The notes below the pieces were generated by a model. It made no database searches. It saw only the letters and a program-made list of their open reading frames with translations, and was not told the origin of the DNA. From positions 916,924-980,923 of the forward strand of contig OZ245010.1 of assembly GCA_965223735.1 (NCBI GenBank): a stretch of 64,000 bases of DNA, in the 5' to 3' direction. A program made the position numbers and the translations under genes. Below are positions 6,557 through 25,877 of this stretch, one piece after another. Within the stretch, counting starts at the first letter, position 1, and each line of letters starts with the position of its first letter. This DNA is from Candidatus Oxydemutatoraceae bacterium. GTDB taxonomy: Bacteria; Pseudomonadota; Gammaproteobacteria; Poriferisulfidales; Oxydemutatoraceae.

Positions 6557-6702
6557 TATCAGGCTGCCTGGGGTCATCCCGAAGTTGACGTGCAGGTTGT
6601 CGGTCGGCGTTGTTGGTTGGCGTGGTGCCCCGCGCGCAGATGTCGCGGCAACCCGGGCAGGCCTGAAACATCGGAGACCAAGTTGCGGGGGCGGTTCAGC
6701 GC
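6557..6702 (-). repeat. ~145-bp IS-derived repeat, copy A (inverted copy of 17413..17555)
   Basis: About 85-90% identical to 17413..17555 in reverse complement (gcgytgaaccgcccccgcaac...cttcgggatgaccc). Copy B lies within the open frame at the 3' end of an rve-type transposase pseudogene. Confidence 0.6.
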
Positions 6703-6832
6703 ATTGCGGCAGAGGCGGCGCAAGTGGAGTACGGGGAGGGGGCCGCGACGGGCGCGGCGTCTTTGGTCTGGCGGAGAAAGAGGGTCTGGCGGAGAACGTG
6801 GAGGAGTGTAGCCGGGAACTGGATTGGTGAGT

Positions 6833-7088
6833 TGGAAGATCGTCTATACAAGGCAGGCGCAAAAAGACGCAAAGAAACCTGCTGGATCGGGATTGAAGCA
6901 CCAAAGCACAGGAATTGCTGGAAACGCTGCGAAACCCGTACCGGGCATTACCACCCTCCGAGAAGCTGGTTGGAGATCTGACCGGCGCTTATGCCCGGCG
7001 GATCGACATCCGGCATCGGCTGGTCTATCAGGCGCCCGATCCCGTGCGCATCGTGAAAGTCATCCGGATGTGGACGCATTACGAGTGA
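6833..7088 (+). pseudogene. YoeB/Txe (RelE/ParE superfamily) toxin gene remnant with frameshift
   Basis: One frame gives (V)SWKIVYTRQAQKDAKK (toxin N-terminus). A second frame gives ...AQELLETLRNPYRALPPSEKLVGDLTGAYARRIDIRHRLVYQAPDPVRIVKVIRMWTHYE*, which is the YoeB-like C-terminus (RRI..HRLVY..HY). A frameshift falls near 6890-6900. Confidence 0.45.
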
Positions 7089-7281
7089 GTCGATGCGACA
7101 ACGGCTTCAAGGAAGGCCAAAAAAGCGCCGGGGTTCGCAGCCGCTACTGCCCGGCGCCCCGTCTTCCTGACAGCACTATTGGGCTGCACTCAAATTCCCT
7201 GTGCAGCCAGGACTGTCGCTCATGGACACCACCCGGCACGCCAGCATCGACCTTGATCGACGCTGTTCCGGCAGCAGGCGG

Positions 7282-7397
7282 CCTGAGCCAACCGGAACCC
7301 GTTATTGTTGTTGCGGTTGTTGCGGTTGTTCCTGTTGCGGTTCGCCGCACGCAGGTTCCCGGCGTTGTTGTTGTTCCAGGAGCCCCCGCGAAGCACG
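7282..7397 (-). repeat. DGR template repeat (TR)
   Basis: 116 bp, co-linear with VR1 (8882..8996) and VR2 (15019..15133). The coding sense is AAC-rich (..SWNNNNAGNLRAANRNRNNRNNRNNNNGFRLAQ). Nearly all TR/VR mismatches sit at TR adenines. Confidence 0.8.
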
Positions 7398-8405
7398 GGC
7401 TCGTATGGCAACAGCCCTCGTAAACTTCACGCCGCCGAAGATATTGCGGCGCAATCCCCACGTCTCGCCATGCCGGGCGTGCCCTATCCAGCTCATCACG
7501 CCGGGCTGAAAATCCGACAATTCACGCCGCCCCGCACGGTACTCTTCCGCCATGCCGCGTAGTCGGCGGCGAAAGCGGTAGCCGTTATCGTTGCGCAGCC
7601 AGCGCCTGCCGGCCGTCAACTGAAACCCCAGCACGTCCTGCTTTTCGCTGGTCCGGCACAGCTGCTGCTTCAGCGGGTGCAGTTGCAGGCCCAAGACGCT
7701 CAACGCTTGACCTGCCCTGTCGCGCAAAGCCCACAGATCAGCCTTGTTGTCGCCGAACAGGAAGAAGTCATCGACATAGCGCATGTAACCCCCCGCCCGC
7801 CGTTGCAGCTCGTGGTCAAGGGCATTCAGGTACAGATTGGCCAGCACCTGGCTGGTCAGATTGCCGATCGGCAGCCCCCGCCTGTCCCCGGCGGAATCAA
7901 CGATGGCGTCGAGCGCCCGCAACGCATATTCATCTTTCAGATAACGCCGGATGCAGGCTTTCATCCCGTCGTGCGGGATCGAGGGGAAATAGGCCGCGAT
8001 GTCGAGATGCAGCACGTAGGCATAACGTCGGGCCTGCGCCTGGTAATAGTCCAGTGCGCGATGCACCCCCATGCCTTTGCGGCAGGCCCAGGATTGATCG
8101 ATCATCGATCGATCCAGCCACGGCTCGATGACGTTCATCAGCGCGTGATGAACCACCCGGTCGGCAAAAGGCGCGCAGGAGATCACTCTCGGCTTGCGTT
8201 CGTAGAGGGTGAATTGCCGGTAGCCGCCCGGCTGCCACGTGTTGCCCGCCAATCGCCGTTGCAACTCGATCAAGTTGGTTTCCAGATCCAGCGCGAAGCG
8301 GGCGACGTCATCGCGCCGGGCCTTGCCCCGCCGGGCTTTGCGCCAGGCGAGATGCAGATTGTCGAAACTGCACACCTGCGGCCAGATCCTGCCCAGGCGC
8401 TTCAT
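7302..8405 (-). CDS. DGR reverse transcriptase
   Basis: RT motifs including RYVDDFFLFG (YxDD). Immediately downstream of avd with a 4-bp overlap. The 3' end of the ORF reads through the TR in another frame (..QQPQQPQQQ). Confidence 0.85.
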   Translation of the reverse strand: MKRLGRIWPQVCSFDNLHLAWRKARRGKARRDDVARFALDLETNLIELQRRLAGNTWQPGGYRQFTLYERKPRVISCAPFADRVVHHALMNVIEPWLDRSMIDQSWACRKGMGVHRALDYYQAQARRYAYVLHLDIAAYFPSIPHDGMKACIRRYLKDEYALRALDAIVDSAGDRRGLPIGNLTSQVLANLYLNALDHELQRRAGGYMRYVDDFFLFGDNKADLWALRDRAGQALSVLGLQLHPLKQQLCRTSEKQDVLGFQLTAGRRWLRNDNGYRFRRRLRGMAEEYRAGRRELSDFQPGVMSWIGHARHGETWGLRRNIFGGVKFTRAVAIRARASRGLLEQQQRREPACGEPQQEQPQQPQQQ

Positions 8406-8764
8406 GCCGGCTTCGCCCGCGAAACACTTTTCAGCCAGCCGCCGATCTGCCTGCCCAGGTCCACCATCAACCGGGCGCCGTGCTGGTAAGCCTTATGCGA
8501 AATGGCCTTCAATTCATAAGCCAGACGCCACAGGTGCTTCAGCACGTTGAGTTTCTGACTGGCGTATTCAAGCGCGCCCGCTTTTCTGGCGCTGAAAGCG
8601 GCCTTGACCAGATGCTCCAGCACCAGCAGCGCGTGGTTCTCCAGCCTCTCCCCGAGGATGAAACGCCGCTTGCGGGGAAAGCGGTCGATCTGAGGGATCA
8701 GCCACCGGATCATCTGGTGGCAGGACTCCACCGCCTGCGGCAATTGGGGCGTTTTTTCGGTCAT
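8402..8764 (-). CDS. avd: DGR accessory variability determinant (Avd; four-helix-bundle protein)
   Basis: 120 aa. Resembles Bordetella phage bAvd (..FPRKRRFILGERLENHALLVLEHL..KLNVLKHLWRLAYELKAIS..DLGRQIGGWLKS). Positioned between target and RT. Confidence 0.7.
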   Translation of the reverse strand: MTEKTPQLPQAVESCHQMIRWLIPQIDRFPRKRRFILGERLENHALLVLEHLVKAAFSARKAGALEYASQKLNVLKHLWRLAYELKAISHKAYQHGARLMVDLGRQIGGWLKSVSRAKPA

Positions 8765-8873: not shown

Positions 8874-10184
8874 TCATAAGTCCTGAGCCAACCGGAACCC
8901 GAGCTCGCTGAAGCGGTAGCCGCGGAAGAACCCGTAGCGGTCCGCCGCACGCAGGGCCCCGGCGAGGTTGCTGAGCCAGGAGCCCCCGCGAAGCACGACG
9001 CGAATCCTGACGCCCTCAATATCCTTGACATCATCGCACCCGCGCGTCCAGGCACTGCCATCGACAGGCGCCCCCCTGTAATCCTCATGCCAGCAATCCT
9101 CCACCCACTCCCACACGTTCCCATGCATATCATGCAAACCGAACCCGTTCGCCCTGAAACGCCCCACCGGGGACGTGTACTGATACCCGTCATTGCAATG
9201 AAAACTTCCGCACTTGTAACCGACAGGGCAAAGACTATCGTCAAAGCAGTTGGCGTTGCCGCGAAGCGACGCCTCACTGTTGCCGGAATAATACCGGGTT
9301 TCGGTCCCCGCCCGCGCCGCATACTCCCATTCCGCCTCCGTCAGCAGACGGTACCGCTTCCCCATCTCCCGCCTCAGCCACTCGACATACGCTTTGACGT
9401 GATCCCAACTCACGCACACCACCGGGTGTTGACCCGTCTGGCTGAAACCGGGATTGCGCCAGTCGGCATTGGCATCGAAGACCACCTTTCCCTCACCTTG
9501 ATCCCACCTCAAACAACCACTGCCCGCATCGTAGCCCGTCGCCTTGACAAACGCCGCAAACTGCGCCCGCGTCACTTCATGTTTGCTCACCGCGAAGGAC
9601 TTGATCCGAACCGTATGCACCGGACGCTCACCATCGTCGCCCCCGCCCTGAAGGTCCCCCATCCGGAAACTCCCGCCCGGCAACACCACCATCTCCGGCT
9701 CGAAATATCGCGCTGCTCGATGGCCCGGCATGGCCGACGTCAGCCAAGTGCCGATTACATACCCCACTTTGCCGTCCGCCAGTTCAACCTTATGCCAGCC
9801 TGAACCCCCCGACCCAACCACCGACACCGCTTCCGACGCCGAGAGTCTGCCGATGATCTCATGCTTCATCCCCGGCCCCGAACGCACGTTCACGTCCACA
9901 CGCGCATACATCCGCCGGACTTCAGGCCGCTCTGCAACCACCTCGCCAGACCCTTGCCGGGCGGGCGGCTTCTGTGCAACGCGGGCGGCAGCTTCAGGCG
10001 CATAACCTTTCCCGACAGAGGCCGACGAGGCTTTGGCAAGGCAGACAACTTCAGAGGCGAGAACCTGTGACGTTCGGTCTGGCGCGGCGGCGCCGACATC
10101 CATGCTCCAGCAGACGCTCTCAGCCTGCGCGGCCTGATAAAGACCGTGGACAAAAGAGAAAAAAAGCAAGCCGGGCATTATCAT
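8874..10184 (-). CDS. DGR target protein 1: signal peptide + bacterial SH3 domain + FGE-sulfatase/C-type-lectin-fold domain with C-terminal VR
   Basis: MIMPGLLFFSFVHGLYQAAQA signal peptide. SH3b-like segment VNVRSGPGMKHEIIGRL...GWHKVELADGKVGYVIGTWL. FGE-domain motifs (HTVRIKSFAVSKHEVTRAQFAAFV..., WEWVEDCWHEDY, RGGSW). The listed ORF extends further upstream to 10334. Confidence 0.7.
   Translation of the reverse strand: MIMPGLLFFSFVHGLYQAAQAESVCWSMDVGAAAPDRTSQVLASEVVCLAKASSASVGKGYAPEAAARVAQKPPARQGSGEVVAERPEVRRMYARVDVNVRSGPGMKHEIIGRLSASEAVSVVGSGGSGWHKVELADGKVGYVIGTWLTSAMPGHRAARYFEPEMVVLPGGSFRMGDLQGGGDDGERPVHTVRIKSFAVSKHEVTRAQFAAFVKATGYDAGSGCLRWDQGEGKVVFDANADWRNPGFSQTGQHPVVCVSWDHVKAYVEWLRREMGKRYRLLTEAEWEYAARAGTETRYYSGNSEASLRGNANCFDDSLCPVGYKCGSFHCNDGYQYTSPVGRFRANGFGLHDMHGNVWEWVEDCWHEDYRGAPVDGSAWTRGCDDVKDIEGVRIRVVLRGGSWLSNLAGALRAADRYGFFRGYRFSELGFRLAQDL
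8882..8996 (-). repeat. DGR variable repeat VR1 (3' end of target gene 1)
   Basis: Aligns with the TR end to end. The encoded VLRGGSWLSNLAGALRAADRYGFFRGYRFSELGFRLAQDL differs from TR-encoded ..NNNN..N..N.N.NN.NN.NNNN.. only at TR AAC codons. Confidence 0.8.
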
Positions 10185-10249: not shown

Positions 10250-13200
10250 TCAGGGCATTTGTACTTTGGTTTGACATTTTGGGCCACCTCCTGTGGGGCA
10301 TCTTGCCGGAAAACTCCGGTTTTGAACTGTCCAATTTATGGGGAAGCCTACGCTTTCTACACCAGTAATCTTCAGACTGACCCTTCTATTCAAGGCGTGT
10401 ATGAAACTGTTTTCACCTTTCAGCATTGTCTCTTCAAACCGTTTCTCCTCTCCCTCATTATTCTCAGGATCCCATTTCACCAGCTTAATTTCGGGTATTT
10501 TCCCGCAAATTTTAAGGGCTTCTGGTTCATTGACCAAGGTTTTCAATTTACGGCACACCGCTTCTGCTCTTCTATTTGCCAGTTCCATATTTGTCTTCAT
10601 TTCGTCTCGGCCTGTATGCGGCCTTTTATCCGCCAGCCCCATCACTTTAATCACCGGATTACCACCTCGACAATTCCCAAAGTGTTCAGTCAGCTCGCTT
10701 GACATTTTCTTCCAATCGTCTTCTTCCACCTTCAGTTCATCTTTGCCGGTTTCAAATAGAGGTAACCAAATCATTGTACTTTTCGACGTTGAGCCCTCGA
10801 CTACAGGAGAATGGTAGTTCACCACGACTTTCGTCGTTGAGCTGCAATGTGTATGAGAACAGCTCTCTACGGCCTTTGGCGTTGAATCCAGGCTTCTCAT
10901 GTATCTGTCAAATTCCTGAACTTCAAATCCTTGCTTTCCATCTTCGATCAATACGGCGTTGCCAAACCGAATGACGCTACTCGGTGCATCTTTGAGATGA
11001 AGATGAAACCTGTCACTATGTTTAATACAGTATCCGCTAAGACAACCGGTCCCCAGTAGTGACAATAAAAGAATACCGATGAACCCATATGTATAACTTC
11101 TCTTTGAGGTGATAAAGAAATCAATCAGAGAGCGCTTTTTGAAAATTGCCTCGTGCGCCAATACCAATGTTTTCTGTTTCGGAATCCTGATTTCCATGCG
11201 CTTTTTTGCACAACGTGCCGTCGCCTGGTAAAATGCCAACAATGCAGTGATAACCAAAAAAACAGAACCAGCTGAATGAACAGGGTATTGCACCAACGCC
11301 TGAAGCCCACTTTCCCAAGTTTGCAAAGGAGCGGTACCGGGTAACACGAATGTGAGTGCCGCAAAGTATATAAACACGGAAAAAATCAATATTATGGATG
11401 GCTTAAAACCATCAATCACCAGGTAACGCCTATAGAACCTCTTCAGATACGGATAGATATCATCTGGCTTCTCGCGATTCACCCAAGTAAGAAGTTTTTT
11501 AAATACTTCTTCCCTTAATTCGGTTATAACTTTAAGTTTTTTCGTCACTCCTCCTAAATTTTCGACCAGTTCCCCACTACTTTCAATTCCCATCTTCAGC
11601 CCACCCACTTCCGCCAATACTCCTTTCAGATTTTTTAATTCTGGTGTTTGGGGGGTACCCCAGTGGCCCTTGCCCGCATTTTTTGATAGTTTCAAATAAT
11701 CATAGATTTCACGCTTCCTATTCTTTTTCATGCCCTCGTAACATTCAGAACATTTTCTAAGTCTGGATTTCAAGTCTTTAAGCCCACTTGACATACCCCC
11801 CTTCAAACTACTTACTGTTTTTTCAAATTCAGATTTAAAGTCTCTAAATCCACTTAACACACTCTCCACTAAACCCTTTGCTGTTTTCTCTGCTTCCTCA
11901 AGTTCAGATTTCAAACCTTCAAGCTTGTCTTGCGCGTTTTTCGTCAGACTTTTCACTTTTTTTTCCACGTTCTCAAATTCCTCTCTCAAGTCCCTAAGCC
12001 TGTTTTGCACGTCCTCCACCCTCCTTAACCATCCCTTTTTTACTCCTGTTGCTTTCTTAAGTTCGGCTTCCACACCTCCAAGTTCGTTTCGCGCGCTCCT
12101 CACCTTGTCCGACCCTTCCCTTTCCACTTTCTCAAATTCATTTTCCAAATCTTCAAGTCTGCTTTGCATATCCCCCGCCAGAGCTTTCTCTTTTGTTTCC
12201 TCAGAGATCTTTCGCACTTCCCTTATTTTCTCAAGTTCAACTTCCACACTTTTAAGCTTGCTTTGCGCGTTTCTCGCCAAGTTCTTCACTTCTTCTTTTG
12301 CTTCCTCAAGTTCAGCCCCCAGATCTTTAAGCTTGCTTCGAGCACCCTTCACCAGTCCCCCCTCTTCCTCTTCTTTAAGTTTCTTTCGTGCCTCTCTTAC
12401 TTTCTCAAGCCCAGCTTCCAGACCTTCAAGCTCGCTTTGTACATACTCCGCCAAACTCTCATTTTCCACTCCCTTAAGTTCAGCTCCCAGACCTTTAAGC
12501 TCGTTTTGTGCATACTTCGCTAAACTCTCATTTTCCACTCCCTTAAGTTCAGCTTCCAGGCCTTCCAGATCTTCTTCCACTCCCTCAACCGCAGATCTCA
12601 AGCCTTTAAGCTTGCTTCGCACATCCTCCACCAAACCTTCCTCTCTTACTTTTTCAAGTCCTTCTCTTGCGCCCCTTACTTCCCCAATTTCAGATCTCAA
12701 GCCTTTAAGCTTGCTTCGTGCGTCCCTCACCAAGTCTTTCACTCCTTTTTTTACTTTCTCAAGTTCAGCTTCCAGACCTTTAAGCTCGCTTTGTGCATCC
12801 CCCACCTTCTTTAACCTCTCCTCTTTTACCTCCTTAAGTCCATCCTTGAATTCAGTTTCCAACCCCTCAAGCGTACTTTGCGCATTCCCCACCAACCCAT
12901 CTTTCTCTACCCCCTCAAGTGCAGCCTTCAAATCTTCAAGCTTGCTTTTCGCATCCTCCATCAACCCCTTCTTTTCAACCTCCTCAAGCGCAGTCTCCAG
13001 GTCTTTAAGCTTGTTTTGCGCACCCTCTACCAAGACACCGCCCTGTTTTACTTTCTCAAGTTCAGCTCCCAGATCTTCAAGCTTGTTTCGCGCGTCCCCG
13101 ACCTTCGTTAACCTCTTTGCTTCTCTCACAAGCCTGTCCTTAAATTCACCCTCCAGCTTTTCAAGCCTGCTTTTCCTCGCATCCCCCACCAGACCCTTCT

Positions 13201-14812
13201 TCTTTATTTCCCCAAGTGCAGTTTCCAAGCTTTCAAGCTTGCTTCGTGCATGCTTTACTTTCTTCAACTCCTCTTCTTCCACCTTTACTTTCTCAAGTCC
13301 GTCCTTAAGTTCAGCTCCCAAACCTTCAAGCTTGTTTCGCGCATCCTCTACCAGCCCCTTCTTCCCCACCTCCTCGAGTGCGGTTTTCAAGCCCTCAAGC
13401 TCGCTTTGCACGTCCCATGCCAGATCCTTCTCTTCTACCTCCCCAAGCGCAATCTCCAGGTCTTTAAGCTTGTTTTGCGCATCCCTCATCAGCCTTTTCA
13501 TTTCTTGTTTTACTTTCTCAAATTCAGCTTCCAAACCTTCAAGCTTGTCTTGCGCATCTCTTACCAGCTCCTTCTCTTCTACCTCCCAAAGTTTGGGTTT
13601 CAGGCTCTCAAGCTTGCTTTGCGCATCTCTTACCAGCCCCTTCTTTTCCACCTTCCCAAGTTTGGTTTCCAGTTCTTCAATCTCGCTCTGCGCGTCCCTT
13701 ACCAGATCCTCCTTTTTCACTTTCTCAAGCTTGGATTTCAAGTCCCCAAGCTTTTCTCCTGTTTCCCGCGTAATACTGTAATCTGCATCTATAGTCTCAA
13801 AAACATTCTTTAAATTTTCGTCTTTAGCAATCTTGACTTTGTGCTTTTTACTTCCTTCAGACCAGTTTGGGTGATCATCAAGAAATTCTAGCGCGCCTTT
13901 TGCACGCTTATTGAAATCTTCCAACTTAAAAAGTAAATCCTTCTGGAAAAGTAAATCCTTCTGGCCCGGGTGATCATCACCGGCACTTGGAGAGGGATCA
14001 GCTCTTATATGTTCCAACAAAATTCGGGAAAGAGGCTTGATTACATTCTTATCAGACCAATATTTGGTGTGACAGCGTAGATTCCATGAAGTAAAAATGC
14101 CTCCTACATTAATAGGGTGATCTTTAATATCCTCGAATGGTTTCCCCAGTTGCTTTAACGGCCAACCCAATACATCATCGGGGTCATAGTAATTATCCCA
14201 CCTGAATTCTTTCTTCGCTGCTATGTCGAAACACTTACGATCATTCTCAGCTATCCCTGAAACGAATACTGGAATATTGCATCCTGTCGTAACCAAGTTC
14301 CTCAACGAATGCAATTTAACAAAAGCCAGTTCATCAGAAGGAAGTCCTGGATTGTTTTTAAAAATATGGTTGCCATTTTCAGCATCCCACAAATAATTTG
14401 AAATCACCTGACAGCCAAGAGATTGAGCAATGATCACAACAGGTTTCGAGTTTTCACCCCCGCTGAGATCCTTATAGGCCTCTTTCAAGGCGTTCATTAT
14501 TTCTGTTTGCGCCTTAATATATGCTTTTGCCTCTTCGGTGCGGGCGCTGCGCTCAAGAGAGCCCGCGTCGCCGAAACCAAACAAGACGAATTTTCTTAGC
14601 GACTTAAAATCAACCTTGTTCTCTGACTTGATCTTTCGCCATAATCGATCCTGATGGCCCTGCAGTGTTGAGTCATACCTCACATTTTGGAAAGAGACCT
14701 TCTCCCACTTATCTTTAAGACGCCTTCTCAGGCCCTTTTCCAAACCTGCATAGTAATTATCCTTGCGTTCTCCCATGCCATGGAGTGTGATCAATGCCAC
14801 CTTTTTACTCAT
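10250..14812 (-). CDS. giant (1520 aa) modular protein: N-terminal alpha/beta-hydrolase-like domain (GxSxG = AQSLG), ~30 tandem ~23-aa coiled-coil repeats, multi-TM segment, C-terminal OmpA/MotB-like peptidoglycan-binding domain
   Basis: One uninterrupted ORF. The N-terminal has ITLHGMGERK...IAQSLGCQV. Its repeats read like LVRDAQSKLESLKPKLEEVEKKG. Hydrophobic helices fall around residues 1125-1260. The C-terminal domain reads VIKVMGLADKRPHTGRDEMKTNMELANRRAEAV. Markedly lower GC than flanking DGR genes. Confidence 0.7.
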   Translation of the reverse strand: MSKKVALITLHGMGERKDNYYAGLEKGLRRRLKDKWEKVSFQNVRYDSTLQGHQDRLWRKIKSENKVDFKSLRKFVLFGFGDAGSLERSARTEEAKAYIKAQTEIMNALKEAYKDLSGGENSKPVVIIAQSLGCQVISNYLWDAENGNHIFKNNPGLPSDELAFVKLHSLRNLVTTGCNIPVFVSGIAENDRKCFDIAAKKEFRWDNYYDPDDVLGWPLKQLGKPFEDIKDHPINVGGIFTSWNLRCHTKYWSDKNVIKPLSRILLEHIRADPSPSAGDDHPGQKDLLFQKDLLFKLEDFNKRAKGALEFLDDHPNWSEGSKKHKVKIAKDENLKNVFETIDADYSITRETGEKLGDLKSKLEKVKKEDLVRDAQSEIEELETKLGKVEKKGLVRDAQSKLESLKPKLWEVEEKELVRDAQDKLEGLEAEFEKVKQEMKRLMRDAQNKLKDLEIALGEVEEKDLAWDVQSELEGLKTALEEVGKKGLVEDARNKLEGLGAELKDGLEKVKVEEEELKKVKHARSKLESLETALGEIKKKGLVGDARKSRLEKLEGEFKDRLVREAKRLTKVGDARNKLEDLGAELEKVKQGGVLVEGAQNKLKDLETALEEVEKKGLMEDAKSKLEDLKAALEGVEKDGLVGNAQSTLEGLETEFKDGLKEVKEERLKKVGDAQSELKGLEAELEKVKKGVKDLVRDARSKLKGLRSEIGEVRGAREGLEKVREEGLVEDVRSKLKGLRSAVEGVEEDLEGLEAELKGVENESLAKYAQNELKGLGAELKGVENESLAEYVQSELEGLEAGLEKVREARKKLKEEEEGGLVKGARSKLKDLGAELEEAKEEVKNLARNAQSKLKSVEVELEKIREVRKISEETKEKALAGDMQSRLEDLENEFEKVEREGSDKVRSARNELGGVEAELKKATGVKKGWLRRVEDVQNRLRDLREEFENVEKKVKSLTKNAQDKLEGLKSELEEAEKTAKGLVESVLSGFRDFKSEFEKTVSSLKGGMSSGLKDLKSRLRKCSECYEGMKKNRKREIYDYLKLSKNAGKGHWGTPQTPELKNLKGVLAEVGGLKMGIESSGELVENLGGVTKKLKVITELREEVFKKLLTWVNREKPDDIYPYLKRFYRRYLVIDGFKPSIILIFSVFIYFAALTFVLPGTAPLQTWESGLQALVQYPVHSAGSVFLVITALLAFYQATARCAKKRMEIRIPKQKTLVLAHEAIFKKRSLIDFFITSKRSYTYGFIGILLLSLLGTGCLSGYCIKHSDRFHLHLKDAPSSVIRFGNAVLIEDGKQGFEVQEFDRYMRSLDSTPKAVESCSHTHCSSTTKVVVNYHSPVVEGSTSKSTMIWLPLFETGKDELKVEEDDWKKMSSELTEHFGNCRGGNPVIKVMGLADKRPHTGRDEMKTNMELANRRAEAVCRKLKTLVNEPEALKICGKIPEIKLVKWDPENNEGEEKRFEETMLKGENSFIHALNRRVSLKITGVESVGFPINWTVQNRSFPARCPTGGGPKCQTKVQMP
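11820..13800 (-). repeat. in-frame tandem coding repeats (~69-72 bp period) inside the giant gene (coiled-coil array)
   Basis: Recurrent nucleotide and amino-acid motif (..GLEAELEKVKK.., ..LVRDAQSKL..). The antisense 618-aa Ser-rich ORF (11925..13781 +) is an artifact of this repeat. Confidence 0.7.
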
Positions 14813-14942
14813 TTTTACTCATTTTTCTCTCCTGCCTGTTGCTTGCCTTCCGGTACAACCACCATCTCCATCTTCAGGCAATGTCTGCCCTTGCACCCCG
14901 CGCCACCCTGTCCCGTCGGCCCACGGCCACGTCACGGGCCGA

Positions 14943-15010: not shown

Positions 15011-15895
15011 TCATAAGTCCTGAGCCAACCGGAACCCGCCATTGTGGACCCGGTCGACGCGGTTGCTCCAGTTGCGGGCCGCCGCACGCAGGTCCCCGGC
15101 GTCGCCGTCGCCCCAGGAGCCCCCGCGAAGCACGCGAATCCTGACGCCCTCAATATCCTTGACATCATCGCACCCGCGCGTCCAGGCACTGCCATCGACA
15201 GGCGCCCCCCTGTAATCCTCATGCCAGCAATCCTCCACCCACTCCCACACGTTCCCATGCATATCATGCAAACCGAACCCGTTCGCCCTGAAACGCCCCA
15301 CCGGGGACGTGTACTGATACCCGTCATTGCAATGAAAACCTCCGCACTTGTAACCGACAGGGCAAAGACTATCGTCAAAGCAGTTGGCGTTGCCGCGAAG
15401 CGACGCCTCACTGTTGCCGGAATAATACTGGGTTTCGGTCCCCGCCCGCGCCGCATACTCCCATTCCGCCTCCGTCAGCAGACGGTACCGCTTCCCCATC
15501 TCCCGCCTCAGCCACTCGACATACGCTTTGACGTGATCCCAACTCACGCACACCACCGGGTGTTGACCCGTCTGGCTGAAACCGGGATTGCGCCAGTCGG
15601 CATTGGCATCGAAGACCACCTTTTCCTCACCTTGATCCCACCTCCAACAACCACTGCCCGCATCGTAGCCCGTCGCCTTGACAAACGCCGCAAACTGCGC
15701 CCGCGTCACTTCATGTTTGCTCACCGCGAAGGACTTGATCCGAACCGTATGCACCGGACGCTCATCATCGTAGCCCCCGCCCTGAAGGTCCCCCATCCAG
15801 AAACTCCCGCCCGGCAACACCACCATCTCCGGCTCCCAGGCAATCCCATCACCGGAAAGAAGCAGCAGACAACAAGACAGCAACGCGGAACGCAC
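15011..15895 (-). CDS. DGR target protein 2: signal peptide + FGE/C-type-lectin-fold domain with C-terminal VR
   Basis: Paralog of the target 1 C-terminal ~290 aa (about 1 kb of near-identical DNA, 8795..9810 vs 14930..15845) with a different VR. GTG start; N-terminal hydrophobic leader LLSCCLLLLSG. Confidence 0.7.
   Translation of the reverse strand: MRSALLSCCLLLLSGDGIAWEPEMVVLPGGSFWMGDLQGGGYDDERPVHTVRIKSFAVSKHEVTRAQFAAFVKATGYDAGSGCWRWDQGEEKVVFDANADWRNPGFSQTGQHPVVCVSWDHVKAYVEWLRREMGKRYRLLTEAEWEYAARAGTETQYYSGNSEASLRGNANCFDDSLCPVGYKCGGFHCNDGYQYTSPVGRFRANGFGLHDMHGNVWEWVEDCWHEDYRGAPVDGSAWTRGCDDVKDIEGVRIRVLRGGSWGDGDAGDLRAAARNWSNRVDRVHNGGFRLAQDL
15019..15133 (-). repeat. DGR variable repeat VR2 (3' end of target gene 2)
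   Basis: Encodes VLRGGSWGDGDAGDLRAAARNWSNRVDRVHNGGFRLAQDL. Differences from the TR are again at TR adenines, with one cgc>cgg exception. Confidence 0.8.
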
Positions 15896-15948
15896 CGTGG
15901 AGACCAGGCGCGCTTCGAAATCGAAATCGGTTTTTACAGTTTGCTCAA

Positions 15949-15964
15949 GGGGGGGGGGGGGGGG
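15949..15964. repeat. homopolymeric G16 tract (poly-C on the coding strand) ~55 nt upstream of target 2 start
   Basis: 16 consecutive G at 15949-15964, in the presumptive promoter region of the target2-giant-target1-avd-RT gene string. Confidence 0.9.
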
Positions 15965-16023
15965 CAGTCTTTCGGGCCAAGGTCACAAACTGACCTTCGG
16001 GCGCGCCTGCCCGAAAGAAGGTT

Positions 16024-17400
16024 TTGTATGAAGCGACAATGCTCATAAGGGGAACAGCTATACCACCGAAATCAAGTAATATCAACTCAATGTATAAGGC
16101 CGTGTTAGCCCAAAGGTGTGATCGGCTGGAACTGATCCGGCGAGTGCAAGCCGGAGAGCTGAAACAAGCTCGGGCGGCAACCAGGATGGGGGTATCCGAA
16201 CGCCACTTCCGGCGCCTGCTCAAGCGGTTTCGCCGCCACGGGCGGTCAGGGCTGGTCTCCCGGCGGCGCGGCGCACCTTCCAACCACCGTTTGCCCGACG
16301 CGACCCGCCGTCGCGCCCTTGAACTCATCAGGGAACGCTACGCCGACTTCGGGCCGACCTTCGCGCACGAGAAGCTTATGGCGCTGCACCGCGACAAGTT
16401 TGACCGCAGCTTCAGTGTTGAAACGCTGCGACGATGAATGATCCAAGAGCAGTTGTGGAGCAAGCGTTCACGGCGTACGCCCCGCATTCACCAGCCGCGT
16501 TTCGGGGAGATGCTCCAGATAGGCGGCAGCCTGCACGACTGGTTTGAAGGCCGGGGTCGTCCGTGCACCCTGATCGCCTTTATCGACGATGCCACTTCCG
16601 CGGTCACCGAGTGGCGTTTTTGCGAAGCCGAAACCACGTTCAACCACTTCGCCTGCCTGAAGCGGCACCTGCACCGCTACGGGCGCCCGGCCAGCGTGTA
16701 TTCAGACCGCCACGGCATCTTCCGGGTCAATGCCAGGGAACAGTGGCAGCCGCACAAAAAGACACAATTCGCCCGCGCCCCGGGGCAATTGGAGATCAGG
16801 TTGATCTGCGCCAGAACGCCACAGGCCAAGGGGCGCATTGAACGCTTGTTCCAGACCGTCCAGGATCGGTTGGTCAGGGAATTGCGGTTGCAGGGCGTCA
16901 GCACCATTGAGCAGGCCAACGCCTTTATCGATTAATACCGCGAAACCTTCAATGAGAAATTCGCAAAATCCCCGGCAGATCTGAATGACGCGCATCGTGG
17001 GCTGCATTGGAGTGACAGGGAACTGCAACTCATCCTGTCCAAACAACGTTGCAGAATCCTGTCACGGAACCTCATCTGCCAATACCACACCGTCCAATAC
17101 CTGGTGCAGACAAGCAAACCTTGCTATGCCATGCGCGGTGCTGCGGTAACCGTGTGTGAACACGTCGGCGGCGAGGTGGTCATATTATACAAGGGACGCG
17201 AACTGTCCTGCCGGGTTCACGCGCAACACGAGCCGGGGCCCGCACTGGTGGATGAGAAAGAGGTGTCGCAGCGGGTGGACGAGGTGCTGCACCGGCAGGG
17301 GGAAGATGGCCGCAAACCGGCGCCAGCGCATCCGTGGAGGCGCTGGAACCCCGGTTATTTGAGTTCCGGGCGCAGGCTGCTGACCGGACATTTCTACTTT
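16024..17400 (+). pseudogene. rve-type (DDE) transposase, IS481/ISNCY-like, disrupted by two in-frame stop codons
   Basis: An HTH segment (..RMGVSERHFRRLLKRFRRHGRSGLVSRRRGAP..) plus an integrase core (..YSDRHGIFRVN..TPQAKGRIERLFQTVQDRL..) all lie in one frame. The frame is broken by TGA at 16435-16437 and TAA at 16933-16935. The same frame continues past 16935 (..CYAMRGAAVTV..) into the ~145-bp repeat (copy B). Confidence 0.55.
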
Positions 17401-17412
17401 GGTTTGACACAA

Positions 17413-17555
17413 TGCGTTGAACCGCCCCCGCAACCTGGTCGCCGAACCCTGTTTCAGGCCTGCCTGAGTTGCCACGGCACCTGCCCGCGGGGCGTCACCC
17501 CCATCAACAACGCCGACCGGCAACCCGCACGTCAACTTCGGGATGACCCTGATAG
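17413..17555 (+). repeat. ~145-bp IS-derived repeat, copy B
   Basis: Inverted partner of 6557..6702. Lies within the open frame of the transposase pseudogene above, just before the tnpB left flank. Confidence 0.6.
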
Positions 17556-17622
17556 CCGCCGCACAATTCATATTATGGTGGGCAATGATATATTTAACTC
17601 ACGTGTCGATCAAATGAAAACA

Positions 17623-18527
17623 CACAGGACTATCAGATACCGTTTGCCTCCGCGCACACGGGCGAAAGCCGCCGTGTTGCACGGCACGGCGGGTGCCTGC
17701 CGCTTTGCATGGAACTGTTTTACCGGGAAATTGCGCAAGGACTGGACGCCTATCAGGTGGGGCAGGTGTTGTTGTTCGAGGACAATCCCTACGCAAATGC
17801 CAAACCGGTCAGCGGCACGGTCAAGTTTGAAGGTGATAACCGGTATGCCTGCATTATGTACGAAGTGAAGCTTGCGGAGGCGGACGCCGATCCTGCCTGC
17901 GCCGTCGGCATTGACCGGAACGTCGGGCAGATCGCATTGTCGGACGGGACGATTTATCGCCTGCCGGATACGGCAAGGCTGGAAGCCCGCAAGCGGCGCT
18001 GCCAATGAATAATGGTGCGCCGCGACTGCGGCAGCAGAAAGTTGGAGCGCAAGGCGTCAGGCCGTTATCTGCGGGCGCGCCGTTTATCGCAAAAGACTGC
18101 CGCCTGTATTGTTCAGGCACGGACCAACTGATGCCATCAGATCTCAAGAAAGATAGCGAGCAAGTATGGCGTGGTGTATCTGGAGGATTTGAACACGAAA
18201 GGGATGATCGCCTCGGCAAAGGGGACGGCGGAACAGGCGGGCAGGAATGTAAAAGTGAAAGCCGGTTTGAACCGGGCGATACTGGGGAATGGATGGGGTA
18301 AGCTTGAGTGGTATTTGTCGTACAAGGCAGCGGTGGTGGTAAAAGCGCCCGCTGCATATACCGACCGGACCTGCCGCGCCTGCGGATCTGTTGAGGCAGG
18401 CAACCGGACTTCACAGGCTGTATTTCACTGCGTGAAGCGCGGCCATCGGGACAATGCGGATGTAATTGAATGTTCCGGCCCTCGGGAATGGGGCTGCTGC
18501 ACATGGAGGTGGCGGGGTGGCCTGTGA
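17623..18527 (+). pseudogene. tnpB: IS200/IS605-family TnpB (OrfB) with multiple frameshifts
   Basis: N-terminus MKTHRTIRYRLPPRTRAKAAVLHGTAGACRFAWN. A RuvC-I region (VGIDRNVGQIALSDGTIYRLPD) sits in a second frame. The C-terminal part VYLEDLNTKGM...YTDRTCRACGSV...CVKRGHRDNADV sits in a third. Confidence 0.65.
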
Positions 18528-24674: not shown

Positions 24675-25877
24675 ATGTTAATGGACGTATTGACCGGCAT
24701 CGGCCTGCTGAATTTGCCGTGGTGGGGCTACATCGCCATCACCCTGATAACGACGCATATCACGATCGCCTGCGTGACACTTTTCCTGCATCGCTCCCAG
24801 GCGCATCTCTCGGTGGAATTTCACCCCGCGGTGACGCACCCGATGCGCTTCTGGCTGTGGATGACAACCGGCATGATCACGCGCGAGTGGGTCGCGATCC
24901 ACCGCAAGCACCATGCCACGGTGGAAACCGAGCACGACCCGCACAGCCCGAAAATACACGGCATCCTGAAAGTGCTGTTCGGCGGTACCGAACTCTATCG
25001 CAGGGAAGCCGCCAACAAAGACACGCTCGAAACTTACGGACGCGGCACACCGCAGGACTGGATTGAAAAAAATCTCTACACCAAACGATCGACCGGAGGC
25101 ATTTGTATACTTTTCGGCGTGTATTACACACTGCTCGGCTTTTGGGGCATCGCGATGTGGGCGGTGCAGATGATGTGGATTCCGTTTTTTGCCGCCGGCG
25201 TGGTCAACGGCGCCGGGCATTTCTTCGGATACCGCAACTACGAGACCGACGACAACTCGACCAATCTGGGTAACATCGGCCTGCTCATCGGGGGCGAGGA
25301 ACTGCATAACAACCACCACGCTTTCCCGGGGTCAGCGAAATTGTCGGCGCAGGCCTGGGAATTTGATATTGGCTGGCTGTACATCAACCTGCTGAAACAC
25401 TTGCGGCTGGCGTGCGTCAAAAGAGTGATGCCGCCGCGCAAAGTCGCGCGGCGCGTGTCGCGCCTTGACTTGGAAACCGTACAGACGCTTCTGCACGGAC
25501 GCCTGCACGTGATGGCGGACTACGTGAACACCGTCATGCACCCCGTGTTCAGGCAGGAACTGAAACTCGCAAAAGGCTCCTACCTGCGCCTTCTGAAAGG
25601 CGTGAAGAAGCCGTTTCTCTATCACGAAAAAAACATCGGGCGCCACGACCTCAACCGCCTGAAAGAAGCGCTAGTGGACAACGAAACACTGAAAACGGTT
25701 TATGAGTTCAGGCATCGCCTGCAATCGCTGTGGCACGATCTGCGCGGCGACCACGAAAAGCTAAGAGTTGCGTTGCTCGAATGGTGCTGGCAAGCCGAAC
25801 AAAGCGGTCTGCACGCGCTTGAGGAATTTGCCCGCAAGATCAAAGGCTGCACCGAGATCAGGCAGACCCCCGCCTGA
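24675..25877 (+). CDS. membrane fatty-acid (acyl-CoA/acyl-lipid) desaturase
   Basis: His boxes HRKHH and HNNHH with N-terminal TM helices. 400 aa. Confidence 0.8.
   Translation: MLMDVLTGIGLLNLPWWGYIAITLITTHITIACVTLFLHRSQAHLSVEFHPAVTHPMRFWLWMTTGMITREWVAIHRKHHATVETEHDPHSPKIHGILKVLFGGTELYRREAANKDTLETYGRGTPQDWIEKNLYTKRSTGGICILFGVYYTLLGFWGIAMWAVQMMWIPFFAAGVVNGAGHFFGYRNYETDDNSTNLGNIGLLIGGEELHNNHHAFPGSAKLSAQAWEFDIGWLYINLLKHLRLACVKRVMPPRKVARRVSRLDLETVQTLLHGRLHVMADYVNTVMHPVFRQELKLAKGSYLRLLKGVKKPFLYHEKNIGRHDLNRLKEALVDNETLKTVYEFRHRLQSLWHDLRGDHEKLRVALLEWCWQAEQSGLHALEEFARKIKGCTEIRQTPA

What the first reader, a model, noticed from the sequence alone, without database searches (positions are those of the whole stretch)
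15949..15964. G16 homopolymer in the promoter region of the DGR target operon
Sixteen consecutive G lie ~55 nt upstream of the target-2 GTG start, between it and a decayed IS. Tracts this long are prone to slipped-strand mispairing. The tract could switch expression of the whole target2-giant-target1 gene string on and off, a second (phase-variation) layer over DGR hypervariation.
Basis: partly seen in the sequence, partly recalled or inferred. Interest (0 to 1): 0.55.

Follow-up and report, generated by a model that had tools for sequence, protein, structure and literature searches.

The report
Slippery poly-G tract before DGR target
A run of 16 G·C pairs sits just upstream of a gene that a mutagenic retroelement (DGR) diversifies, and a related locus has a 13-bp run at the same spot, so it may be a slippage on/off switch, but switching has not been shown.

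Summary
G16 lies at 15949-15964 (C16 on the gene strand), 53 nt upstream of the GTG of DGR target 2. It is the only long homopolymer in the window; 0.00025 are expected by chance.

An independent k-mer assembly of a public sequencing run reproduces it. The tract lies about 5 nt outside the eroded left end of a 1.44-kb pseudogenised IS1202/ISNCY element.

A paralogous DGR locus from another metagenome (L023) has the same arrangement: IS-end remnant, GACTG, poly-C, leader, signal peptide. Its tract is C13. The tract is therefore inherited and differs in length between the loci.

No credible promoter brackets the tract. The best sigma-70-like sites in both loci lie upstream of it, inside the IS end, so the tract is probably transcribed. 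An ATG at 16046 opens a leader ORF that fuses to target 2 at C12/15/18 and stops right after the tract at C16. In L023, C13 is in frame.

Nothing tested supports or excludes control of the whole target2-giant-target1 string. No same-locus population data could be obtained.

Verdict: a plausible but unproven contingency tract. A neutral scar at the IS junction is nearly as likely.

The parts
15949..15964 (-). Homopolymer: G16 on the + strand, C16 on the strand of the DGR genes
   Evidence: Chance expectation 0.00025. Reproduced at the start of Logan contig L025. Homologous C13 in L023 at 7050-7062.
15896..15948 (-). 53-nt leader between the tract and the GTG of target 2. It holds a 22-nt block (AGCAAACTGTAAAAACCGATTT) identical in L023, and a CTG at 15907 that is conserved in both loci.
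   Evidence: Alignment A3. Leader plus signal-peptide DNA is 89% identical, 84 of 94. Frame analysis.
15011..15895 (-). DGR target 2: 294 aa from the GTG, with a signal peptide and an FGE-sulfatase/CLec domain. It is chimeric. The first ~20 codons are homologous to the signal peptide of an L023 lipoprotein gene. From EPEMVV (~15835) onward it is a duplicate of target 1.
   Evidence: Pfam PF03781, 7e-61.. The source record instead calls it from the ATG of MVVLPGG, 271 aa.
15019..15134 (-). VR2 of target 2
   Evidence: Repeat family D7. 19 of 20 TR/VR2 mismatches are at TR adenines.
15965..15969 (.). 5-nt spacer (CAGTC on +, GACTG on -) between the tract and the inferred IS terminus. It is conserved in L023.
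15970..17409 (+). Pseudogenised IS1202/ISNCY-family insertion sequence of about 1,440 bp. Eroded IRL at 15970-15995 and intact IRR at 17386-17409 (...GGTTTGACA). The transposase frame runs 16090 to about 17352 with two in-frame stops. No target-site duplication.
   Evidence: NF033594, 382 bits. Ends defined by comparison with homologous IS in L021 and L022: the terminus lies 118-119 nt before the ATG, and the IR motif is CCAAAGCA..ATGTCC. An alternative left terminus at about 16004 is not excluded.
16057..16085 (-). Best sigma-70-like site on the gene strand (TTGATA-17-TATAGC, with TG before the -10 hexamer). It lies inside the IS left end and faces outward towards the tract and target 2.
   Evidence: PWM scan, score 9.0. 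L023 has TTGCAA-17-CATACT in the equivalent region, score 10.6. Scores of 9 or more occur about once per 2 kb per strand. This is a consensus match only.
15945..16046 (-). Leader ORF that starts at ATG 16046, reads the tract as poly-Pro and stops at TGA directly after it (33 aa) when the tract is C16. At C12, C15 or C18 it fuses in frame to target 2.
   Evidence: Length simulation. In L023 the equivalent ATG (6989) is in frame through C13 with the annotated 231-aa lipoprotein gene.
10250..14812 (-). Giant gene: 1,520 aa with an N-terminal alpha/beta-hydrolase-like domain, about 20 coiled-coil repeats and an OmpA-like C-terminal region. Low GC (39-50%) in a locus of about 60% GC.
   Evidence: Homologues of its N-terminal domain in 15 genomes have no RT, Avd or FGE gene within 10 kb where the contig allows.
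8874..10334 (-). DGR target 1 (SH3 plus FGE-sulfatase/CLec). VR1 at 8882-8997. The likely true start is MIMPGLL at about 10184.
7282..8764 (-). DGR core: bAvd 8402-8764, RT 7302-8405, TR at about 7282-7397
10253..10276 (+). Solo copy of the IS1202-type terminal repeat (22 of 24 identical to IRR 17386-17409), in the same orientation. It overlaps the last 8 codons of the giant gene.
   Evidence: 0 expected by chance.

Best explanation
The tract is a genuine, slippage-prone poly(G·C) run in the 5' leader of DGR target 2. It belongs to an inherited module of about 270 nt: IS1202-type left-end remnant, GACTG, poly-C, a 53-nt leader, then the first ~20 codons of a signal peptide. In a paralogous DGR locus the same module precedes a different exported protein.

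Most likely mechanism. Replication slippage changes the tract length. That makes expression of target 2 heritably but reversibly variable.

Favoured geometry (inferred). Transcription starts at an outward-facing promoter in the IS end, at about 16050. Ribosomes start at ATG 16046 with little or no leader and read the tract as poly-proline. At C12/15/18 they run on into target 2, which is the ON state. At C16, the length assembled here, they stop at TGA immediately after the tract, which is the OFF or low state. The released C-rich RNA could then load Rho and reduce transcription of downstream genes.

What is shown: the tract, its position, its homologue of different length, the frame arithmetic, and the promoter-like matches.

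What is inferred: that slippage occurs at a useful rate, that the ATG and the promoter are used, and any effect on expression or polarity.

Probability that the tract acts as a switch of any kind: about 0.4. Probability of the leader-ORF version specifically: about 0.25.
For: - The tract is real and far beyond chance, and an independent assembly reproduces it.
- L023, a paralogous DGR array, is homologous on both sides of the tract and has C13 instead of C16.
- The leader and signal-peptide side is 89% identical between the loci. The IS side is only 76% identical, yet at least 13 uninterrupted C survive in both.
- Frame simulation gives ON at C12/15/18 and a stop right after the tract at C16.
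- In L023 the upstream ATG is in frame through C13 with the annotated lipoprotein gene. No ATG lies between that tract and the signal peptide, and the in-frame GTG and TTG there give a signal peptide with no charged N-region.
- The indel between the two leader ORFs is 21 nt, a multiple of three.
- The top sigma-70-like hits on the gene strand lie 7-10 nt upstream of that ATG in both loci.
- Target 2 encodes an exported protein that the DGR has diversified. Surface and exported proteins are the class of genes typically under phase variation (PMC1891110).
- C-tracts of 10-19 nt are proven switches in Bordetella fim promoters (PMC1891110).
Against: - There are no same-locus population or strain data. 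The flank searches of genome and metagenome collections found no copy of this locus, and every exact-protein look-up for another contig spanning the tract failed.
- The leader ORF shows no coding constraint: about 6 non-synonymous codon changes against 1 synonymous across the first ~15 aligned codons (read from A3).
- The stretch between the tract and the signal peptide is read in different frames in the two loci.
- A signal peptide about 50 residues from the N-terminus would be atypical.
- The window has its own start candidates downstream of the tract (GTG 15895, conserved CTG 15907) that give a canonical signal peptide. In that case tract length might only alter the length of the 5' UTR.
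- The two promoter-like hits are offset by 3 nt between the loci, and such scores occur about once per 2 kb.
- The locus is full of decayed mobile elements, so neutral debris is plausible.
- Uninterrupted survival of 13 positions is only mildly unlikely (0.03-0.22) at 76-89% identity.
Confidence: 0.4

Rival explanations
1. Neutral scar. The tract is hypermutable DNA that happens to sit at an old, rearranged IS junction. It was copied along when the DGR locus duplicated and has no effect on expression. Target 2 would be translated from GTG 15895, CTG 15907 or the ATG of MVVLPGG regardless of tract length, or would be poorly expressed altogether.
For: - The tract abuts an eroded IS end with no target-site duplication, so the junction has been rearranged.
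- The neighbourhood is a graveyard of mobile elements: a pseudogenised IS1202-type element, a TnpB remnant, a solo IR and a decayed toxin gene.
- No significant promoter brackets the tract.
- The leader ORF shows no coding constraint.
- The source annotation starts target 2 downstream, at an ATG preceded by a GGGAG Shine-Dalgarno-like motif (sequence).
- In L023 the end of the tract reads C13-T-C-T, which can also be read as a C16 interrupted by two substitutions.
Against: - Long G/C runs are otherwise absent from the 64-kb window and from 24 of the other 25 loci examined by then.
- By general knowledge of homopolymer dynamics, a neutral run of 13 or more should shrink or become interrupted over the 11-24% divergence seen between the two loci.
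- Its position, 21-80 nt upstream of the gene for an exported protein, is the class most enriched for functional tracts (PMC1891110).
Confidence: 0.35
2. The tract lies inside the promoter of the operon, as the C-stretch does in Bordetella fim promoters. A -10-like TAAAAA lies 12 nt downstream of the tract, the -35 position falls inside the C-run, and an upstream activator or UP site is moved in and out of register by slippage. This would switch transcription of the whole target2-giant-target1 (and avd-RT) string.
For: - CTGTAAAAACC, 12 nt after the tract, is identical in the window and in L023, and a 17-nt spacer puts the -35 position inside the C-run in both.
- The tract is 53 nt from the start codon, inside the 21-80 nt class used to call promoter tracts in Bordetella (PMC1891110).
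- All genes down to the RT are co-directional, with no terminator-like site in the gaps between them.
Against: - TAAAAA lacks the conserved final T.
- No hit passes the strict scan or scores above background in the PWM scan.
- The sequence upstream of the tract is a decaying IS end that is only 76% conserved and carries a 21-nt deletion in L023. That is a poor candidate for a conserved activator site.
- The giant gene is a foreign, low-GC insert with its own AGGAG ribosome-binding site, and its homologues are never linked to a DGR.
Confidence: 0.15
3. Artefact. The run, or the join across it, was produced by sequencing or assembly, for example by poly-G no-signal calls or a chimeric join.
For: - The source is a 1.85-Mb metagenome-type contig.
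- Homopolymer length is error-prone on every sequencing platform.
- The Logan contig breaks exactly at the outer edge of the tract.
Against: - The right-hand junction is reproduced base for base by an independent k-mer assembly.
- L023, from a different assembly, has the same left flank, tract, spacer and right flank. The join is therefore biological.
- Only the exact count of 16 remains uncertain.
Confidence: 0.05

Closest known systems
Bordetella pertussis/bronchiseptica fim2, fim3, fimX and fimN promoter 'C-stretch' (Willems et al. 1990, cited from my own knowledge; PMC1891110)
   Same: An uninterrupted C-run of 10-19 nt on the coding strand lies a few tens of nt upstream of the gene for a secreted or surface protein. 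Its length differs between related loci and strains. No canonical -35 is present; the -35 position would fall inside the C-run.
   Different: In Bordetella the tract is proven to lie between the -10 and the BvgA sites, next to a 'fim box'. Here no activator site or promoter is identified, the sequence upstream of the tract is an IS remnant, and the best promoter-like site lies upstream of the tract.
Intragenic poly-G/C switches of Neisseria, Haemophilus and Campylobacter, e.g. hmbR and hpuAB (PMC3786947, PMC8355987, PMC5084427)
   Same: A G/C homopolymer lies near the 5' end of an open reading frame, and its length sets the frame. One length class in three is ON. In L023 the tract is inside the annotated ORF and in frame.
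   Different: Those tracts are usually 8-14 nt and lie in coding sequence under clear constraint. Here the stretch upstream of the tract shows no coding constraint and overlaps an IS end, and alternative start codons lie downstream of the tract.
Mycoplasma hyorhinis vlp genes: a conserved 5' cassette with a promoter homopolymer and a lipoprotein signal peptide in front of divergent coding regions (from my own knowledge; not checked in the paper library)
   Same: A conserved 5' module containing a homopolymer and a lipoprotein-type signal peptide precedes different downstream coding sequences.
   Different: Only two instances are known here, the tract is poly-C rather than poly-A, and no promoter position has been shown. 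The sharing may simply reflect one recombination event.
Multi-DGR loci remodelled by transposons in Thiohalocapsa PB-PSB1 and relatives (PMC10907252)
   Same: Several paralogous DGRs are present, with FGE/CLec targets, pseudogenised transposases and IS-end repeats inside the loci. RT and Avd fragments are duplicated in the same genome.
   Different: A term search of that paper found no mention of homopolymers, promoters, expression or phase variation. The targets here are small exported proteins.
IS1202 family insertion sequences (PMC10132070)
   Same: About 1.5 kb long, with ~24-nt terminal repeats ending TGT...ACA, a second internal transposase-binding repeat, and a transposase of about 420-440 aa with HTH and DDE domains. 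The homologue L022 has a 15-bp TSD.
   Different: The copy here is dead: it has two nonsense codons, an eroded left repeat and no TSD. It is context for the tract, not the tract itself.

Membership tests
Homopolymeric-tract contingency (phase-variation) locus | Uninterrupted mononucleotide run long enough to slip (about 8 nt or more for G/C) | tested here: met
   16 G at 15949-15964. Chance expectation 0.00025.
Homopolymeric-tract contingency (phase-variation) locus | The tract is placed so that a length change alters transcription or the reading frame of a gene | tested here: inconclusive
   The frame link to an upstream ATG exists, but use of that ATG is unproven. No significant promoter brackets the tract.
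Homopolymeric-tract contingency (phase-variation) locus | Length polymorphism at the same locus among cells or strains | tested here: inconclusive
   Only a paralogous locus could be compared: C13 in L023 against C16 here. The Logan contig breaks at the tract edge, which fits either heterogeneity or low coverage. No same-locus sequences were found.
Homopolymeric-tract contingency (phase-variation) locus | Reversible, high-frequency ON/OFF change of the gene product | not testable with these tools
   This needs cultures, reporters, or read-level data linked to expression.
Bordetella fim-type C-stretch promoter | The C-stretch lies between a functional -10 element and an activator-binding site, so its length sets their spacing | tested here: inconclusive
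   A conserved TAAAAA lies 12 nt downstream of the tract in both loci, but it is a weak -10. No activator site is known, and the upstream DNA is a poorly conserved IS end.
Diversity-generating retroelement (context of the tract) | RT plus accessory Avd, a TR/VR pair whose mismatches fall at TR adenines, and a VR at the 3' end of a CLec-fold target | tested here: met
   PF00078, PF22296 and PF03781. VR1 23 of 24 and VR2 19 of 20 mismatches at TR adenines.
IS1202 family (the element next to the tract) | About 1.5 kb, with 24-26-bp imperfect TIRs ending 5'-TGT / ACA-3', and a transposase with HTH and DDE domains | tested here: met
   15970-17409 is 1,440 bp. The IRR ends ...TTTGACA, and the IRL is eroded (17 of 24 matches to the IRR). 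NF033594 scores 382 bits. Family definition from PMC10132070.
IS1202 family (the element next to the tract) | Target-site duplication (3-5 bp, more than 15 bp, or none, depending on subgroup) | tested here: not met
   The flanks GGGGGGGGGGCAGTC and CAATGCGTTGAACCG share nothing. The homologue L022 has a 15-bp TSD. This suggests a rearrangement after insertion.

The most novel reading that the evidence does not exclude
The ~270-nt unit (outward-reading IS-end promoter, poly-C tract, leader, lipoprotein-type signal peptide) is a portable phase-variable expression cassette. This lineage has placed it in front of different exported proteins linked to DGRs. Slippage in the tract sets the frame of a leader ORF. 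In the OFF frame, the freed poly-C RNA loads Rho and silences the downstream operon, possibly including avd-RT. Stochastic on/off switching would then be layered on DGR hypervariation, and might gate DGR activity itself.
Probability: 0.1. Interest if true: 0.7.

Novelty: new member of a known kind. Interest (0 to 1): 0.4.

Why it matters
DGRs change what a binding protein recognises. Phase variation changes whether a protein is made at all. I found no report that couples the two: a full-text search returned none, and term searches of two recent DGR papers were negative.

If the tract does switch target 2, or the operon, this would be a two-layer bet-hedging system in an environmental bacterium that carries many DGRs. 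It would also be an example of an IS remnant supplying the expression signals.

If it does not, the finding is still a useful caution. Long homopolymers at IS junctions can look regulatory, and this one is likely to trouble assembly and gene calling. The source record and the L023 record chose different starts for the two homologous 5' regions.

Tried and rejected
- **Right-flank search.** An exact 22-mer search of the right flank in 185,579 species genomes found nothing.
- **Left-flank search.** An exact 21-mer search of the left flank in JGI metagenomes gave three hits, and none shares flanking sequence with this locus. L016 and L018 are identical to each other, encode an hbd-like gene, and match the window over 27 nt. 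L017 matches over 22 nt.
- **Exact-protein look-ups.** Look-ups of RT, hydantoinase, P0002, P0123 and P0261, and of the 33-aa leader ORF, were not on record. The 1.85-Mb source contig could therefore not be fetched, and its paralogous locus could not be read.
- **Giant gene homologues.** Homologues of the giant's N-terminal domain in genomes (L001-L015) are at most 59% identical and carry no DGR parts. They are useless for the tract.
- **Closest transposases.** The closest are at most 62% identical. No DNA-level comparison of further copies of this IS was possible, but L021 and L022 were enough to define the ends.
- **Viral contigs.** Scans with conserved leader and signal-peptide words, and with the RT, found nothing relevant.
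- **Rfam.** Nothing was found near the tract.
- **Hairpin next to the tract.** CTTTCGGGC...GCCCGAAAG was considered as a regulatory structure. I rejected it because the 21-nt deletion in L023 removes one arm.
- **Sigma-54 site.** TGGTCTCCACGGTGC, which overlaps the GTG, was considered. I rejected it because the spacing is off by one in L023 and the site overlaps the start codon.
- **Tract inside the IS.** Rejected. The distance from terminus to ATG (118-119 nt in L021 and L022) puts the IS end at about 15970.

Full report
**1. Observation**

Sixteen consecutive G occupy 15949-15964 on the + strand. The window is 56% G+C. Its next-longest G or C run is C7 and its longest run of any base is A9. 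From base composition, 0.00025 G/C runs of 16 or more are expected.

**2. Context on the minus strand**

All the DGR genes read on the minus strand, so the tract is C16 in gene orientation. The order is:
- C16
- a 53-nt leader
- target 2 (GTG 15895 to 15011; signal peptide plus FGE-sulfatase/CLec; PF03781, 7e-61)
- a 1,520-aa coiled-coil 'giant' gene (14812-10250)
- target 1 (about 10184/10334 to 8874; SH3 plus FGE)
- bAvd (8764-8402)
- RT (8405-7302)
- TR (about 7397-7282)

Both VRs carry the DGR signature. 23 of 24 VR1 mismatches and 19 of 20 VR2 mismatches to TR fall on TR adenines.

Target 2 duplicates target 1 only from EPEMVV onward, at about 15835. Its first ~20 codons come from elsewhere (section 4).

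The giant gene has 39-50% GC in a locus of about 60%. Homologues of its N-terminal domain in 15 genomes are not near any RT, Avd or FGE gene. It is therefore a foreign insert, not a usual DGR partner.

**3. The neighbour on the other side is an IS1202/ISNCY element, and the tract lies just outside it**

The + strand from 16090 encodes an ISNCY_2 transposase (NF033594, 382 bits). It lies in one frame but has stops at 16435 (TGA) and 16933 (TAA).

Two homologous elements were fetched from metagenome contigs (L021 and L022; transposases 60-62% identical). They show the family's ends: terminal repeats containing CCAAAGCA..ATGTCC, outer ends TGT...ACA, a 15-bp TSD in L022, and 118-119 nt from the left terminus to the ATG that aligns with ours.

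In the window the right repeat is intact at 17386-17409 (...GGACATTTCTACTTTGGTTTGACA). Counting 118-120 nt back from ATG 16090 gives a left terminus at about 15970. The sequence there, TTTCGGGCCAAGGTCACAAACTGACC, matches the right repeat at 17 of 24 positions with two 1-nt insertions. MAFFT offers an alternative terminus near 16004.

Either way the tract is outside the IS. It is separated from the IS by CAGTC under the preferred reading. The element is about 1,440 bp, which fits the IS1202 family as defined in PMC10132070. No target-site duplication is present, so the junction has been rearranged since insertion.

**4. The key comparison: a paralogous locus has the same junction with C13**

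The source of the window is a 1,846,438-bp NCBI/ENA contig. It also encodes several related RT and Avd fragments, so the genome has multiple DGRs. Housekeeping proteins of the window have no relative at 90% identity or more in the database.

One RT fragment led to L023, a 22-kb ENA contig. It carries a DGR array whose parts are 77-87% identical to the window's. The source genome has its own orthologue of that locus (P0261 is 91% identical to P0260). L023 is therefore paralogous to the window locus.

L023 has C13 at 7050-7062 in gene orientation. Alignment shows homology on both sides of the tract:
- Upstream, the IS-end remnant is 76% identical and carries a 21-nt gap. It ends in GACTG in both loci.
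- Downstream, the leader and the first ~20 codons of a signal peptide (...LLxCCLLLLSG) are 89% identical, 84 of 94.

Beyond that point the two loci diverge. The window continues into the FGE domain. L023 continues into a 231-aa lipoprotein gene, followed by a 699-aa FGE target, avd and an RT fragment.

The junction and the tract therefore pre-date the divergence of the two loci. The run has stayed at 13 or more in both, and its length differs. It is not same-locus polymorphism.

**5. Independent support from reads**

Logan contig L025 is a k-mer assembly of run ERR13602196. It equals window 15949-17185 at 100% identity and begins with exactly 16 G. This shows that G16 plus the right flank exists in raw reads. 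A contig that stops at the outer edge of the tract fits either a branch (a mixture of tract lengths) or failing coverage. I draw no conclusion from the break.

**6. Where is the promoter?**

The strict sigma-70 scan finds nothing at 15700-16300.

A position-weight scan ranks TTGAGC-17-TTCGAT, immediately 3' of the tract, at 4.7. Scores that high occur about once per 140 nt, and the TTG is TCT in L023.

The top hits on the gene strand are upstream of the tract, inside the IS end. The window has TTGATA-17-TATAGC with an extended TG (16085 to 16057, score 9.0). L023 has TTGCAA-17-CATACT (score 10.6). Scores of 9 or more occur about once per 2 kb per strand. The two hits are offset by 3 nt in the alignment. 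This is modest evidence only, but it favours a transcribed tract over a promoter tract.

A fim-like geometry cannot be excluded. In it, the conserved TAAAAA 12 nt after the tract would serve as the -10 and the -35 position would fall inside the C-run.

**7. Frames**

An ATG at 16046 lies 10 nt after the window's candidate -10. It opens an ORF that reads the tract as poly-Pro. With C16 the ORF stops at TGA 15947-15945, giving 33 aa. With C12/15/18 it runs in frame into target 2, giving 343-345 aa.

In L023 the homologous ATG (6989) lies 7 nt after its candidate -10. It is in frame through C13 with the lipoprotein gene, and the depositor's gene call uses it.

Against a coding role:
- The first ~15 aligned codons differ by about 6 non-synonymous changes against 1 synonymous.
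- The segment between the tract and the signal peptide is read in different frames in the two loci, because of a 1-nt indel.
- A conserved CTG (15907) and the window's GTG (15895) would give a canonical N-terminal signal peptide without any extension.

The source record calls target 2 from a still later ATG, at MVVLPGG.

**8. Mechanism and probabilities**

The tract is physically certain to be slippage-prone. This rests on general knowledge and on tracts of 10-19 C that vary among Bordetella strains and drive fim switching (PMC1891110). Whether slippage matters here depends on where transcription and translation start, and that is unresolved.

| Explanation | Probability |
|---|---|
| Switch of any kind acting on target 2 | about 0.4 |
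| Leader-ORF frame switch specifically (part of the 0.4) | about 0.25 |
| Neutral scar at a rearranged IS junction | about 0.35 |
| Artefact | about 0.05 |

The leader-ORF version carries a purely inferred extension. After termination in the OFF frame, the C-rich, G-poor RNA (C/G ratio 2-2.5 over 60-nt windows) could load Rho and cause polarity on downstream genes.

No terminator-like site lies in the gaps between target 2, the giant gene and target 1. Read-through is therefore possible, but nothing shows that the string is one transcription unit.

**9. Comparison with known systems and novelty**

In form the tract most resembles the fim C-stretch of Bordetella, or an intragenic poly-G/C switch of Neisseria or Campylobacter. 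The shared 5' module recalls the mycoplasma vlp cassettes.

As a candidate homopolymer contingency locus it meets the length criterion. It is inconclusive on placement and on polymorphism. Reversibility cannot be tested with these tools.

A full-text search linked DGRs with homopolymer phase variation only in passing. Term searches of two recent DGR papers found no mention of phase variation. The transposon-shaped, multi-copy nature of the locus matches what is described for Thiohalocapsa PB-PSB1 (PMC10907252).

I class it as a possible new member of a known kind (a homopolymer switch) in a new context. The case is unproven, and interest is moderate.

Noticed in passing
window 10253-10276 and 17386-17409: A second copy of the IS1202-type terminal repeat (22 of 24 identical, same orientation) overlaps the last 8 codons of the giant gene. 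Together with the IS left end at about 15970, two IS ends face the segment that holds the giant gene, target 2 and the tract. This resembles the remains of a composite transposon that may have delivered the low-GC giant gene.
   Followed up: partly
window 6571-6711 and 17405-17549: A ~140-nt inverted repeat (87-88% complementary) brackets the whole DGR plus the IS. The right copy starts exactly at the IS terminus and lies just upstream of a TnpB (IS605-type) remnant at about 17614-18527. It may be an IS200/605-type left end, or a MITE derived from one.
   Followed up: partly
window 15835-15895 against L023 7100-7160: Target 2 is chimeric. Its first ~20 codons are homologous to the signal peptide of an L023 lipoprotein gene, but the lipobox Cys (LLSGC) is Asp here (LLSGD). 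It then joins a duplicate of target 1 at EPEMVV.
   Followed up: partly
window 10250-14812: The giant ORF has about 20 diverged coiled-coil repeats of about 69-75 nt, an N-terminal alpha/beta-hydrolase-like domain (AQSLG), predicted membrane segments and an OmpA/TssL-like C-terminus. Its GC is 39-50%. Homologues of the N-domain occur in Chromatiales, Vibrio, Anaerolineae and others, without DGRs.
   Followed up: partly
window 14800-14830 (minus strand): A tandem duplication, ATGAGTAAAAATGAGTAAAAAG, lies at the start of the giant gene. The first ATG opens a 5-codon ORF and the second starts the gene.
   Followed up: no
window 15925-15951; L016 and L018: A 27-nt stretch that includes the first 3 G of the tract (AATCGGTTTTTACAGTTTGCTCAAGGG) is identical to part of a 3-hydroxyacyl-CoA-dehydrogenase-like gene in two JGI metagenome contigs. 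No flanking similarity exists. This is probably chance, but it is longer than expected.
   Followed up: partly
window 6824-7090: A frameshifted remnant of a YoeB/Txe-type toxin gene (...LVYQAPDPVRIVKVIRMWTHYE) lies next to the TR end of the DGR.
   Followed up: no
window 7282-7397: The TR overlaps the 3' end of the RT ORF. The AAC-rich TR is read as the Gln/Pro-rich tail of the RT (...QQEQPQQPQQQ).
   Followed up: no
L023 1-11500: A dense array of decayed DGR parts: four complete FGE targets plus a cut one at the contig start, two Avd genes, two RT fragments with the same truncation point, and other IS fragments. The source genome holds orthologous fragments, so DGR cassettes have repeatedly duplicated and decayed in this lineage.
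   Followed up: partly
window 25540-25629: ARAGORN reports a 90-nt tRNA-like gene with a 2-base anticodon call (tRNA-???). Rfam does not confirm it.
   Followed up: no
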